DNA of 64,000 nucleotides from Eledone cirrhosa. Taxonomy: Eukaryota. The stretch lies in NCBI GenBank assembly GCA_964016885.1, contig OZ024752.1, forward strand, positions 11,346,001 to 11,410,000. The letters run 5' to 3'. The position numbers and the translations under genes are program-made. The first letter of the stretch is position 1. Each line of letters starts with the position of its first letter. The notes under the pieces are model-generated. The model saw only the letters and a list, made by a program, of their open reading frames with translations. It was not told the DNA's origin and ran no database searches. This document shows, one piece after another, positions 32,782 to 62,170 of the stretch.

Positions 32782-32842
<61 letters not shown>

Positions 32843-32917: not shown

Positions 32918-32973
32918 CTGTTATATTATTTCGGTGATAACCATTGAGCAACAGATGTGACCTCATCAGACAG
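32918..32973 (-). ncRNA. Type I hammerhead ribozyme motif with long stem II
   Basis: CUGU CUGAUGA GGUCACAUCUGUUG cu CAAUGGUUAUCACC GAAA UAAU AUA ACAG; 4-bp stem I, AUA site, AATAAA downstream. Confidence 0.75.
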
Positions 32974-33260
32974 GTGGAATTTGAACAGAAAAATATAACG
33001 ATGGAATAAAGTTTACTTCTGTTATTTCGATTTTTTCATAAGCTCAGCGCTGAAATTTGGTGTTGTTTTTTCAAAGCTCTGGTTGCATGTATACATATAT
33101 ATATATATATATATATACAGAGGTATCCACAGTAAGTTGTGGGGTCTATTCTGCATGAAGAACTCGATGTAATCGATATGTTGAAAATGTTGTAGGTTAA
33201 GATAAATCTCGGAAAACAATAAAACATTAAAAGGAAAACAGAGTCGTGATATAAAAAATG

Positions 33261-33604
33261 AAACAATGAAATAAAAAATCAAGTCATTAGAGATATGCTT
33301 CACTGCTTTACGATCGTTTCTAGATGATGATAATACATTGTAGCTATACTCCGTTATTGATCTATGTAAGGTTAGTTACAAAATATCAGAGAGAGAGAAT
33401 ATTTACTTACATGCATATCACCAGCTGTTTTCAAAAGCAGCTGGTGATATGCATGTAAGTAAATATTCTCTTTATCTGATAGTTTGTAACTAACCTTACA
33501 TAGATCAATAACGGAGTATAGCTACAATGTATTATCATCATCTAGAAACGATCGTAAAGCAGTGAAGTATATCTCTAATGACTTGATTTTTTATTTCATT
33601 GTTT
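33261..33604. repeat. Near-perfect palindrome: 167-bp arms (33261-33427 / 33438-33604), 10-nt centre
   Basis: Arms are reverse complements with about 4 mismatches; abuts (TA)n at 33610. Confidence 0.95.
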
Positions 33605-33607
33605 TAA

Positions 33608-33648
<41 letters not shown>

Positions 33649-41582: not shown

Positions 41583-42085
41583 TTCTTTAAGTCGTTTGGA
41601 AGCCTCGACAATGCAGATGGGTAAATCTCCGGGTAACAAGATCCGGTGGTGGAGAGAGATATCTACGTTGGTGTACGTTGAGATGCGTGGCGTGTATAAG
41701 ACTGTAGCGTGTAGAGAAATGAAGGAAAGAGCGTAAAGTATAAAAATAATAAATAAAAATTAAATAAAGACAACGAACAGCGGAGGACACGTTTCGCACC
41801 TTTCCGACAGAAAACCTCCCCCCCCCCCCGAAAAAACACCCAGTTGATGGATGTGAATCCGAATTATATAGGGACAATTAAATCTCTCCCAAGGTAACTC
41901 TATCTCGTGTTGTTATTTTTATTTTTATCCTTTACGCTCTTTCCTTCATTCCTCTACACGCTACAGTCTTATACACGCCACACATCTCAACATACACCCA
42001 CTTACATCTCTCTCTCCACCACCGGATCTTGTTACCCGGAGATTTACCCATCTGCAATGTCGAGGCTTCCAAATGACTTAAAGAA
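41583..42085. mobile_element. Inverted-repeat element, arms about 175 bp (41583-41760 / 41910-42085), with HHR-like scaffold in the spacer
   Basis: Arms are reverse complements with several mismatches; spacer plus right arm match 700-960; near TA tracts. Confidence 0.8.
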
Positions 42086-42920: not shown

Positions 42921-43375
42921 TTATTTATATATATTTTTTTCCTCAGCTGCGTTTGTCTGTTTCTTTCTTACTACTTCCCCCCTCTCTCTGTATCTCTCAC
43001 CTTCTTTTGCTCCCTCTGTCAGTCACACTTTCTCTCGACTGGCTTCTTCCTCGCACTTCCACTCACTCACTTTCTGCTTCTTCCCCTCTCACTTCTTCCC
43101 GTTTGGCCTGTGTGGGGTCCTTTCTCACTCACATCTCACCCAGGTCGGATGGTCTGAATATCTCTCTCACCATGAAATTCACCAAGCTTAAGCTGAATAG
43201 ATATCATATGCCTGTTTCTTTCTATCTATCCGTTGCTATACCATGTTTGTTTGTTTACTTGTCTCGCTCGCTTTACGCTATTTTACTTGTCCCAATAGCT
43301 TTATTTAGCTATTGCTCGCACCAACTGGAGGTATATGATTTTTAAAGCTATGAAATACCAATGAAAGTTAGAAAA

Positions 43376-43403
<28 letters not shown>

Positions 43404-43408
<5 letters not shown>

Positions 43409-43607
43409 CTAAAAAGGAAAAGAAAATGCTGACAAATTTTACCCAGTGAAAAATAGTTTAATTAGGAATAAGTATAAATTAGTAATAAGTATTAGTTAGT
43501 ATAACTGAATACTAACTAATACTTATTACTAATTTATACTTATTCCTAATTAAACTATTTTTCACTGGTGAAAATGTGTCAGTATTTTCTTTTCCTTTTT
43601 ACTAATA
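43404..43607. repeat. Palindrome, arms about 99 bp, 6-nt loop, embedded in (TA)n
   Basis: Arms 43404-43502 / 43509-43607 with a few mismatches. Confidence 0.93.
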
Positions 43608-43614
43608 TATATAT

Positions 43615-43715
<101 letters not shown>

Positions 43716-43799
43716 GTTATTCCGGGTTGAATCGGAGGTAACCACAGTAAGTAAGGTACTCAATACATAGCAGAGTATAAAAGTTTTAATATAGATGAG

Positions 43800-44003
<204 letters not shown>

Positions 44004-44492: not shown

Positions 44493-44739
44493 ATACATAT
44501 ATATATACATATATATATATATACATAGATATTGTTATATTTGGGGAGGGTCATATTTGCGTAATATTGCCAGAATTAATAACAGAACACACTCACTGTT
44601 TGGTTGGTTTTCGCTTCTCGCTGTCTTTTATATATATATATCTGCGATCTAACTTACTCGGTCCTCAATGTTGCCATTGACTGACCGGCGGTCAAAAATA
44701 ATACAGATACAATATAGACAAACACATATATATATAGTT

Positions 44740-44781
44740 TACATAAATCTTTCGTTGCACATCTGCAACATCGTCAGTGGT
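44740..44781 (-). ncRNA. Hammerhead-like motif (left arm)
   Basis: Mirror image of 44911-44952. Confidence 0.55.
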
Positions 44782-44910
44782 GTTATATTCATTGTTCCTC
44801 CTGTTGTGTTGTATGTCTACGCCATTTTTTTTGTTCAGTCTGAACAACAAAAAAAAACAAAAAAAAATGGCGTAGACATACAACACAACAGGAGGAACAA
44901 TGAATATAAC

Positions 44911-44952
44911 ACCACTGACGATGTTGCAGATGTGCAACGAAAGATTTATGTA
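44911..44952 (+). ncRNA. Hammerhead-like motif (right arm) with an extra nt after CUGANGA
   Basis: acca CUGACGA U GUUGCA gaug UGCAAC GAAA GAU UUA ugua; 6-bp stem II, stem I reduced to 2 bp. Confidence 0.55.
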
Positions 44953-45847
44953 AACTATATATATATGTGTTTGTCTATATTGTATCTGTATTATTTTTGA
45001 CCGCCGGTCAGTCAATGGCAACATTGAGGACCGAGTAAATTAGATCGCAGATATATATATATAAAAGACAGCGAGAAGCGAAAACCAACCAAACAGTGAG
45101 TGTGTTCTGTTATTAATTCTGGCAATATTACGCAAATATGACCCTCCCCAAATATAACAATATCTGTTTCGACACACGATTTCATATAAAAAACCTCGCA
45201 AAACTAATTCATCGCCGCTATACATAGATAGATATACATAAACAGGTTTTCTACCTATCTCCTCCCCCTCATCATTTCCTCTATCACCCCCACACCTACA
45301 AAAATAACCTCACTATCTAACAGGCTTTACCTGTCTCCCTTTCATCGCCACCCTTAAAGTCTACATCCACCCACATCCAACTACATCCACCCACCTGTAT
45401 GTCAGGATCGCTGTTTTCACTTTAAATCTCAGCTTCACTGCTTGCCTACCTGCTTGTCTGTCCGTCTCTCTGCTTGCATGTCTGTCTGTTTGCCTGCCTG
45501 CTTGCACGTCTGTCCGACTGCCTGGCTCCTGACTGGGTGTTAGCCTGTCTGCCTGTCTCCGTATGTCTGTCTGTCTGTCTATCCACCTGACATGACACTA
45601 TGTCAGCCTACCTGCTTCGCTGCTTGACTACGTATCTGTCTGTTTGCCTGTGTGCCTGCACGTCTGTCTGTCTGCCTGCCTGCCTGCACGTCTGTCTGTC
45701 TGCTGCCTGCATGTCTGTCTGCCTGCTTGACTATGTCTCTGCATGTCTGTCTGCCTGCTTGACAGTGACTGTCTGTTCGCCTCTCTGCATGCCTGTTTGT
45801 TTGCCTGTCTGCCTGCTTGCCTCTGCCTGCTTGCCAATCGGCCTGTC

Positions 45848-58020: not shown

Positions 58021-58717
58021 AAACTAAACAAACAATTATAGAAACCCAGGTTTACATATATACATACGCACATTCTGCTTGTCTGGGCCTAAAATCTGCT
58101 TTAGTACAGGTCCTTTTGTTCTGAGATCAAATTTAATTGTCAACCTTTCATCATTCTGAGGTGTATAAAATGAAGTACTAGTGAAAATATTAGTGTTGCT
58201 TTATCGATTGTTCCCTCTGCCAAATTCCTGGCATTTTAACTATGTAGAATATAATTCTATTAATATTAACAAGTACGGAATACAACTGTCGACATGTTTC
58301 GGTGCTATACGCCCTCCTCCCCTCCTCAGCGATGTATATATATCAACATATACCGTCTTTTATTACCCATGTCAACGGTGTATAAATATTACCATACACC
58401 GTGCTTACTTAAGAAATGTACTAGATTGCGCATTTGTTGGCCCTCAAAGGGAAAAGTATTTAAGAACAAATTATGCATTTAAAACCACAATCCATTTAAG
58501 GTAACGTAACCAAACCTGAATGCAATCCGGAGTCAAGTAATTTTTCAACGTTTCATGTATTTCTGTATAGTTACATCCGTCAAATCATGAGTCCCTCGGT
58601 GACCAAATATATATCAAGCACGCATTTTGGGCCGCTCCTCAATTAGTCAAGATACATTAAGATAAATAAAATAAAAGAATATACAAGTGTCCACTTAAAT
58701 GAACAATCAATATCCTT

Positions 58718-61006: not shown

Positions 61007-61038
<32 letters not shown>

Positions 61039-61082
61039 AAGTTAAATAAAAGTCAAATGATTAAAATTTAGCTTCGTTTATT

Positions 61083-61137
61083 ACTGCTATATATATTTCA
61101 GTGACAGCCATCTTTGGCTGTGACCTCTTCAGGCAGT
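61083..61137 (-). ncRNA. Type I hammerhead ribozyme (left arm)
   Basis: Mirror image of 61360-61414. Confidence 0.8.
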
Positions 61138-61359
61138 TTGAATTAGTATGGTATAGACAAGTACATATGTTGTTTAGGTGTATGATATTGTCAATACTCT
61201 GATATGCCCAGTTCCTTGTTTGGTTGTTAATTCACTGAGGAACTGGAGTCATATGACTGGAGTGAATTAACAACCCAACAAGGAACTGGGCATATCAGAG
61301 TATTGACAATATCATACACCTAAACAACATATGTACTTGTCTATACCATACTAATTCAA

Positions 61360-61414
61360 ACTGCCTGAAGAGGTCACAGCCAAAGATGGCTGTCACTGAA
61401 ATATATATAGCAGT
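61360..61414 (+). ncRNA. Type I hammerhead ribozyme (right arm)
   Basis: ACUGC CUGAAGA GGUCACAGCCA aaga UGGCUGUCACU GAAA UAUAU AUA GCAGU; 5-bp stem I, 11-position stem II, palindromic stem III, predicted cleavage after 61409; AATAAA at 61415. Confidence 0.8.
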
Positions 61415-61800
61415 AATAAACGAAGCTAAATTTTAATCATTTGACTTTTATTTAACTTTATTTTACACTACTCCGGAGTAACCAAACCAACCTGCGCACT
61501 TCGTCGAGTGCTCCAGCCTGCATACTGAGGTGTTGGTATACAACCAACATAAACTCAAAATCTATCTATATATATATATATATATTTATGAAGATATCCA
61601 GAAAACCCCGTATCTCGGGAACCCGTGGACCGATTTAAGCGAAACTTGTTTTATTCCATTTGTATTCCCATTTCAGAGTCAACTTCCTTTCAAAATATTT
61701 TCCTATTATGCGCCCTTTTTGGTGTAATGTAATTATATATATATATATTATATATATAATATATATATATATTATATATATAATATATATATATATATAT

Positions 61801-62170
61801 ACCGCTCGGACACCCCGACTCCCTCTCCCCACTCCACCCGCCACCACCCCTACACGCTCCACAACCTTCCACCACCTGTTTTACCCCAGTTTAATTTTAT
61901 TTTGATCATGCTTTTATTTTTATTTTTATTTTTATCTTTATTTTTATTTTTATTTTCATTTCCACCGTTTCCTCCCACCCCCTTTTTGCTATATGTCTCT
62001 TCACCACTCCCCTACACACCCTTTGAACTCTCTTCCCACACACTTTTCACCTGAAGAAGGGCTTATGCCCGAAACGTCGTTCCCCACCACTACCCCACTC
62101 TCAAGAGCGTGAAATTAATAAACATTCGTTGTACTGCCTCTCTGTTTTGTTCCTGTTAAAATTTTCCATT
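61801..62170 (+). mobile_element. Penelope-like terminal fragment with HHR-like core at 62051-62080
   Basis: CUGAAGA A GGGC uuau GCCC GAAACGUCGU, then AATAAA at 62117; bounded by (TA)n on both sides. Confidence 0.6.

What the first reader, a model, noticed from the sequence alone, without database searches (positions are those of the whole stretch)
61032..61562. Best exemplar: 205-bp-arm palindrome with an intact hammerhead on each strand
Seen: (TA)n, inverted arm, 24-nt centre, sense arm with a canonical-core HHR (61360-61414) and AATAAA directly after stem I, an unpaired tail of about 97 bp, then (TA)n. This matches the inverted pseudo-LTR plus tail layout established for PLE insertions but has no coding sequence. 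The palindromic AUAUAUAU stem III suggests dimeric cleavage. It is the best candidate for biochemical testing.
Basis: partly seen in the sequence, partly recalled or inferred. Interest (0 to 1): 0.8.

Follow-up and report, generated by a model that had tools for sequence, protein, structure and literature searches.

The report
Mirror-image stub of Penelope-type retroelement
This 530-base mirror-image stretch is one young copy of a very abundant repeat, likely left by a Penelope-type jumping gene copying from both ends of a DNA cut; its two hammerhead ribozyme motifs are real but are predicted to be shut off here by pairing of the two arms, so it is an ordinary example of a known layout.

Summary
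Observation confirmed: arms 61032-61236/61261-61465 (204 of 205 complementary), a canonical-core type I hammerhead on each strand, a 97-nt tail, (TA)n on both sides. Public runs show a very high-copy family; other copies also end at 61465 followed by (TA)n. Correction: the '24-nt centre' is not a loop. Twenty of its bases are antisense family sequence, so the inverted arm is 225 nt and turns at a self-complementary TCATATGA, near which other copies also turn. Best reading: a 5'-truncated Penelope-like (PLE) insertion, likely made by two cDNAs primed from both ends of a cut in (TA)n at two fixed RNA start sites 97 nt apart. The layout, palindromic junctions and dimer-type hammerheads are all published. 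'Best biochemical candidate' is overstated: a read-through RNA in either direction meets the antisense arm first, and hammerhead stems have probability 0 in the folded + strand. No genome was held, so the parent element (autonomous or not), the empty allele and this locus's exact junction remain unverified. The scan has reported this kind of insertion many times on other pieces of this genome. New member of a known kind; interest 0.2.

The parts
61007..61033 (.). Left (TA)n target run; its last TA is shared with the arm end
61032..61256 (-). Inverted (antisense) arm, 225 nt: 205 nt mirrored plus 20 nt of further family 5' sequence; its outer end equals the fixed internal end 61465
   Evidence: loose ends before 61261 in X1 and X4 and behind 61256 in X4
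61083..61137 (-). Mirror copy of the type I hammerhead; predicted cut after 61088
61247..61263 (.). Inversion junction: self-complementary 12-mer 61247-61258 around TCATATGA (61249-61256); an 8-nt direct repeat at 61242-61249 and 61256-61263; the sense arm lacks 10 nt here relative to a perfect fold-back, with 2 nt in their place
   Evidence: junction variants
61261..61465 (+). Sense arm (5'-truncated pLTR-like sequence), matching the family majority sequence
   Evidence: X7 contig 61329-61551 and X4 contigs 61261-61310, 61360-61465 with 0 other letters
61360..61414 (+). Type I hammerhead motif with canonical core and palindromic stem III; predicted cut after 61409
61415..61420 (+). AATAAA; no evidence of use as a poly(A) signal
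61466..61562 (+). One-sided 97-nt tail with AC-rich stretches and predicted hairpins; inferred to lie between two reverse-transcription start sites
   Evidence: copies ending at 61465 + (TA)n in X4, X2, X6
61563..61585 (.). Right (TA)n target run (starts with TATC)

Best explanation
This is a young, non-coding, head-to-head copy of a very abundant hammerhead-bearing repeat, likely inserted into a (TA)n run by a Penelope-like (PLE) reverse transcriptase/endonuclease that likely extended both ends of one DNA cut, and its ribozymes are predicted to be inactive at this locus because the arms would pair. Shown: the anatomy; the high abundance; a recurrent end at 61465 followed by (TA)n in other copies; other inversion junctions whose antisense side ends near the TCATATGA palindrome while the sense side resumes at scattered places. 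Inferred: (1) the enzyme cut both strands in (TA)n; (2) the left 3' end was extended as antisense cDNA from the RNA site equal to 61465 and the right 3' end from the site equal to 61562, so the 97-nt tail is the distance between two start sites; (3) both cDNAs stopped early (225 and 302 nt) and were joined head to head at the self-complementary 8-mer, with a small templated patch or a later central deletion; (4) in the parent RNA the hammerhead would cleave only as a dimer or with protein help. Whether the template was an autonomous PLE or a non-autonomous derivative is not resolved.
For: The layout matches the published inverted 5'-truncated copy plus one-sided tail, with (TA)n targets in Hydra and Naiad PLEs (PMC8557442) and palindromes at inverted junctions (PMC3846280). 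In vitro, a PLE protein cuts and extends both strands of AT-rich DNA from two internal start sites that bound the tail (PMC11167929). Both arms have the polarity of minus-strand cDNA primed from their own flank (sequence). End at 61465 + (TA)n: X4 1 contig, X2 3 contigs and X6 1 contig. In the low-depth run X4 the contig 61360-61465 has depth 18.2 and the tail contig 9.28, near the 2:1 expected if only one arm carries the tail; X6 gives 73.7 and 40.5. Depth falls upstream in X4 (18.2, 13.3, 7.2), as 5' truncation predicts. Seven other junctions skip 32-278 nt of the reference, so the arms end independently. Abundance: X2 summed depth about 720,000 over the hammerhead against 7-8 in two flank bins; X22 raw reads about 1,800 against 0 in the bins 61601-61618 and 61709-61730. 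Whole-palindrome RNA -374 kcal/mol with hammerhead stem probabilities 0.0.
Against: No RT/EN ORF is linked to the family: no genome was held, the longest stop-free frame in the element is 56 codons and the longest ATG frame 30. The tail (97 nt) is longer than the published 30-40 nt. No target-site duplication can be read in (TA)n. X5 does not show the 2:1 ratio at single-contig level (218.8 over 61323-61389; 282-351 over the tail), and the tool warns that summed depth is no copy number. The clustering of antisense ends (6 of 7 in 61247-61258, p about 0.01 against a uniform model) is inflated by detection bias, because only 61237-61256 is unique to the left arm in the reference. Skips in the sense arm could also be later deletions in unstable palindromes. 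The exact junction of this locus is absent from the listed records; in X1 the depth at 61259 (34.3) is fully explained by two variant contigs (13.2 + 21.1).
Confidence: 0.75

Rival explanations
1. Same insertion machinery, but the template is a non-autonomous retrozyme-like unit (a small, possibly circular RNA longer than 340 nt), and this locus is a truncated two-armed copy of it. This differs from the best reading only in the nature of the template.
For: Very high abundance with little divergence and no ORF; retrozymes are proposed PLE derivatives (bioRxiv 10.64898/2026.07.22.740005; PMC7229834); earlier scan notes report 310-591-nt palindromic retrozyme families in this genome (unchecked).
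Against: No head-to-tail repeat here and no listed joint from the tail back to the upstream part; reads were cut at 61551-61596, so this is a weak test. The 38 nt seen upstream in X4 do not match the tail end.
Confidence: 0.35
2. A single cDNA or antisense RNA folds back at the self-complementary TCATATGA and copies itself (the self-priming idea of Arkhipova et al. 2013); the asymmetric centre is a later deletion.
For: A perfect fold-back form at this site is indicated in sample S1 (loose end behind 61258 in X2), and X5 has a junction that folds back to 61258 before jumping. PMC3846280 reads junction palindromes as self-priming.
Against: It does not explain why the inverted arm stops at the same base (61465) in independent copies while the other arm runs 97 nt further; two internal start sites do.
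Confidence: 0.2
3. The palindrome, or its centre, is an assembly or read artefact.
For: No listed record bridges this exact junction; a perfect fold-back version is indicated in runs of the same species, so the 24-nt asymmetric centre could be a mis-called perfect palindrome.
Against: The flanks outside the arms are unrelated, one arm has a tail, the arms differ at one base, and inversion joints of this family occur in runs X1, X2, X5 and X22, from three samples. A filter removes records, so absence proves nothing.
Confidence: 0.08
4. A MITE or fold-back DNA transposon whose long terminal inverted repeats happen to hold a hammerhead.
For: Long inverted repeats, TA target, no ORF, high copy number.
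Against: The repeats are not terminal (97-nt one-sided tail), the inner junctions vary between copies, and depth decays towards the 5' end.
Confidence: 0.03
5. A host-domesticated hairpin-RNA or ribozyme locus, or an ambisense viroid-like agent written into DNA.
For: A hammerhead on each strand; a long predicted dsRNA.
Against: The two motifs are one motif mirrored; the copy matches the family majority, so it is young; no match in viral contigs (0); 83 of 83 metagenome hits were only short seed matches (best 29 nt).
Confidence: 0.03

Closest known systems
EN+ Penelope-like elements: inverted 5'-truncated pLTR with one-sided tail (PMC8557442 Fig. 2 legend; PMC3846280)
   Same: Head-to-head inverted copy, tail on one end only, palindrome at the inverted junction, hammerhead in the repeat; (TA)n target as in Hydra and Naiad families.
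   Different: No ORF in this copy; tail 97 nt rather than 30-40; clade not assignable.
PLE hammerheads with small palindromic helix III (Cervera and de la Pena 2014, PMC4209133)
   Same: Type I, short stem I (5 bp), long stem II, palindromic helix III, canonical core; truncated single copies and opposite-strand pairs 100-700 bp apart are described there.
   Different: [quoted passage not shown]
Poseidon_Ac (PAc) in vitro system (Frangieh et al. 2024, PMC11167929)
   Same: Two ends bounding a tail, AT-rich target, AC-rich sequence near the inferred start sites, hammerhead upstream of them.
   Different: In PAc the tail lies in the ORF start; here the ATG in stem II opens only 16 codons. The main text I read does not treat inverted copies.
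Metazoan non-LTR retrozymes (PMC7229834; bioRxiv 10.64898/2026.07.22.740005)
   Same: Non-coding, type I hammerhead, low GC, high copy number.
   Different: No head-to-tail array here; unit length and circular RNA not shown.

Membership tests
EN+ Penelope-like element (insertion product) | Inverted 5'-truncated copy adjacent to a direct copy | tested here: met
EN+ Penelope-like element (insertion product) | Tail on one end only, with a recurrent internal end | tested here: met
   97-nt tail; copies ending at 61465 + (TA)n in X2, X4, X6; longer than the 30-40 nt in print
EN+ Penelope-like element (insertion product) | Type I hammerhead in the pLTR | tested here: met
EN+ Penelope-like element (autonomous) | RT plus GIY-YIG ORF | tested here: not met
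   No ORF in this copy; the parent could not be sought. So this copy is not filed as an autonomous PLE.
Hydra clade | RWK, DKT and CxCX5C protein motifs; RT phylogeny | not testable with these tools
   No protein. Five of six short DNA motifs were absent from the Craig et al. supplement and the sixth hit an unrelated context (file cut when stored).
Hydra clade | (TA)n target and canonical hammerhead | tested here: met
   not specific to Hydra
Non-LTR retrozyme | Head-to-tail units, each with a hammerhead | tested here: inconclusive
   None at this locus; no tail-to-head joint listed, but reads were cut at the tail end
Non-LTR retrozyme | Circular RNA in vivo | not testable with these tools
   No RNA holder listed
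Hammerhead ribozyme type I | Core C3-A9, G12-A14, A15.1-U16.1, H17 and three helices | tested here: met
   stem III only 2 bp as a monomer (probability about 0.08)
Hammerhead ribozyme type I | Self-cleavage | not testable with these tools
   needs in vitro transcription
MITE / fold-back DNA transposon | Terminal inverted repeats and a constant internal structure | tested here: not met
   one-sided tail and variable junctions

The most novel reading that the evidence does not exclude
This family records, in thousands of young copies, the unexplained step that makes PLE inverted ends: one enzyme complex primes both ends of a cut from two RNA sites 97 nt apart, and the two cDNAs are joined preferentially through a short self-complementary site (TCATATGA) in the element. 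That would make the junction site, the two start sites and the long structured tail directly testable cis-signals, and would make each insertion a self-silencing dsRNA source.
Probability: 0.35. Interest if true: 0.5.

Novelty: new member of a known kind. Interest (0 to 1): 0.2.

Why it matters
As a single locus it matters little: it is a truncated copy of a known kind of retroelement end. Its use is as one more clean data point on how PLEs build inverted ends. PMC8557442 leaves this to future mechanistic work and PMC3846280 reads it as self-priming. The recurrent second end and the independent 5' ends of the two arms favour two-ended priming, and the family suggests a junction hot spot. It also shows why such loci are poor stand-ins for ribozyme activity in vivo: the mirror arm is predicted to block the fold.

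Tried and rejected
Own genome: none held, so no copy census, parent ORF or empty-site search. Rfam: no hammerhead family among the 150 shown of 269 window hits or the 10 local hits; the miRNA hits are far below gathering scores and reflect the hairpin. Other copies in the window: none. Metagenome scan: 83 loci, all short seed matches. Viral contigs: 0. Sequencing runs: no RNA holder listed. Empty allele and the sequence beyond the tail: not obtained, since reads were cut at 61551-61596. X22 loose ends and begin/end peaks coincide with AATT sites and are library ligation, not element ends. Selection on the core: none of 10 variant positions (>=10%, X1) lies in the catalytic core, but 10 of 324 is too few to mean anything. 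A degenerate endonuclease C-terminus in the upstream arm: only a faint resemblance by eye, not claimed. AATAAA as a poly(A) signal: common in this DNA and upstream of both inferred start sites; not claimed. Luense et al. (PMC5785218) is not held; known here only through the review PMC6765202. Scan notes by sequence and by relatives: nothing.

Full report
Setting. The window is AT-rich DNA packed with microsatellites and without long coding ORFs, i.e. an animal-type intergenic region; earlier scan notes call the genome octopus-like (unchecked). No whole genome is held.

Observation. The arms 61032-61236 and 61261-61465 are 205 nt with one mismatch, 61221/61276. Each carries a type I hammerhead motif: stem I 5 bp, CUGAAGA, stem II of 9 pairs with a C.C mismatch and a G.U first pair, GAA, palindromic AUAUAUAU, A17. 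The predicted cut is after 61409 (+) and 61088 (-). A strict descriptor finds these 2 in the window and 0 in 60 of 60 shuffles; the 55-nt motif folds at z -2.61, with 4 of 200 shuffles as good. Rfam does not recognise it. The tail is 61466-61562 and (TA)n lies on both sides. There is no second copy in the window and no ORF: at most 56 stop-free codons, 30 from an ATG.

The family. Of 24 runs listed, 16 hold the stretch or part of it; I laid 8 of the 24. In organism A, X1 gave 2,584 contigs, X2 1,213, X5 78, and raw run X22 2,928 reads. Summed depth over the hammerhead is about 720,000 in X2 against 7-8 in two flank bins, and about 1,800 in X22 against 0 in the bins 61601-61618 and 61709-61730. 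The tool warns that this is no copy number; I infer only that the family is very abundant, probably thousands of copies. Runs labelled as other species show trace depth of near-identical sequence (X4, X6, X7) or nothing (X17, 0 reads). I read that as carry-over, not as horizontal transfer. It makes those contigs useful as a view of the majority sequence: the sense arm and tail of this locus match them with 0 differences over 61329-61551 (X7) and over 61261-61310, 61360-61465 and 61436-61551 (X4). The copy is therefore young. Ten positions vary at 10% or more in X1; T61397C (274,313 of 668,710) gives the canonical G10.1-C11.1 pair, and none lies in the catalytic core.

Ends and junction. Other copies end at 61465 and run into (TA)n: X4 1 contig, X2 3 contigs, X6 1 contig. 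In X4 the contig before 61465 has depth 18.2 and the tail contig 9.28; X6 gives 73.7 and 40.5; X5 does not show this ratio. Loose ends before 61261 (X1, 19 contigs; X4) are the reverse complement of 61237-61256, so the 'centre' is mostly further antisense family sequence; X4 shows at least 18 nt more upstream that this locus lacks. The turn is at TCATATGA (61249-61256), inside a self-complementary 12-mer, beside an 8-nt direct repeat. One search lists six other joints (antisense side ending 61231, 61247, 61249, 61252, 61252, 61253; sense side resuming 61437, 61503, 61528, 61360, 61439, 61531) and a seventh in X5 (61258 to 61291); X2 also has a loose end that reads as a perfect fold-back. Six of these 7 end in 61247-61258 (p about 0.01 against uniform), but the reference favours detection in 61237-61256, so this is only suggestive. 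Against full confirmation: no listed record bridges this locus's own junction, and in X1 the depth at 61259 is accounted for by two variant contigs. The insertion may be private to the source individual, filtered out, or mis-called at the centre.

Mechanism. Shown in print: PLE copies carry inverted 5'-truncated copies and one-sided tails, and Hydra and Naiad families target (TA)n (PMC8557442: passages, section 11 and supplement searches). Palindromes at inverted junctions are known and were read as self-priming (PMC3846280: passages). A purified PLE protein cuts and extends both strands of AT-rich DNA from two internal RNA sites that bound the tail, and its hammerhead is protein-assisted and dispensable for insertion in vitro (PMC11167929: parts 1-2 of 4, the main text). 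Inferred here: both flanks primed minus-strand cDNA, from 61465 on the left and 61562 on the right; the two cDNAs stopped at 225 and 302 nt and were joined at the self-complementary site. I took the two-ended reading from earlier scan notes and tested it only in part, through the recurrent end, the depth ratio and the independent arm ends. Self-priming at the 8-mer remains a rival, and a non-autonomous (retrozyme-like) template cannot be excluded (PMC7229834: passages; bioRxiv 10.64898/2026.07.22.740005: part 1 of 5 and passages; its supplements are closed and might list related families).

Ribozyme. As a monomer, stem III forms with probability about 0.08 and costs 3.4 kcal/mol; the double-hammerhead fold scores -35.8 against -23.2 for two active monomers and -30.0 for two open ones, though an inactive co-fold scores -42.8. 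This agrees with the published dimer model and its low activity (PMC4209133: parts 1-2 of 4; review PMC6765202: passages). With the tail attached, stem I probability drops to about 0.15. In the whole + strand palindrome all hammerhead stems are at 0.0 (-374 kcal/mol; the - strand folds at -376). A read-through transcript from either side makes the antisense arm first, so this locus is predicted to yield dsRNA rather than an active ribozyme, unless transcription starts at the centre.

Novelty. Every element of the layout is described. Searches for 'Penelope-like + inverted pLTR + mechanism' (3 papers), 'Penelope + inverted + twin priming' (2, seen as listings only) and 'Penelope + octopus + palindrom' (2, listings only) showed no paper on this family or on two-ended priming as the source of inverted PLE ends; the library lacks most subscription papers. 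The scan itself has many earlier reports of such insertions in this genome (351 notes fit the look-up), though none matched this sequence. Verdict: a real, young, non-coding PLE-type insertion; new member of a known kind; interest 0.2.

Noticed in passing
window 32918-32973 (-): A second type I hammerhead with the same stem II base (GGUC/CACC with a C.C mismatch), ending at (TA)n at 32842. Weak flank similarity to this element (upstream 4 of 200, downstream 13 of 200 shuffles as good): probably a distant sibling family.
   Followed up: partly
window 43716-43846 (-): Short piece between (TA)n runs that shares a 27-nt stretch with the 32842 element and holds the ATTGAGTAC motif that earlier scan notes link to Hydra-type tails.
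   Followed up: no
window 44527-45165: 639-nt fold-back next to (TA)n, 11 mismatches in the half, no hammerhead core found.
   Followed up: no
window 33249-33616 and 43375-43637: Two more fold-backs beside (TA)n, without hammerhead cores.
   Followed up: no
window 41583-41759 / 41910-42085: Inverted pair of about 177 nt (93%) between TA runs with an asymmetric centre; looks like another PLE-type end.
   Followed up: no
window 61803-62165: Element between (TA)n runs with a hammerhead-like core and short stem II at about 62051-62078 but no clear stem I: likely decayed.
   Followed up: partly
window 58290-58340 (-): Hammerhead-like core (CUGAGGA ... GAAA) found by the relaxed scan.
   Followed up: no
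run X4, contig laid at 61393-61428: A related hammerhead family with the same stem III and downstream bases but a different, apparently longer stem II (loose ends).
   Followed up: no
window 61637-61690: The right flank holds a separate high-copy repeat (X2 depth up to 83,000).
   Followed up: no
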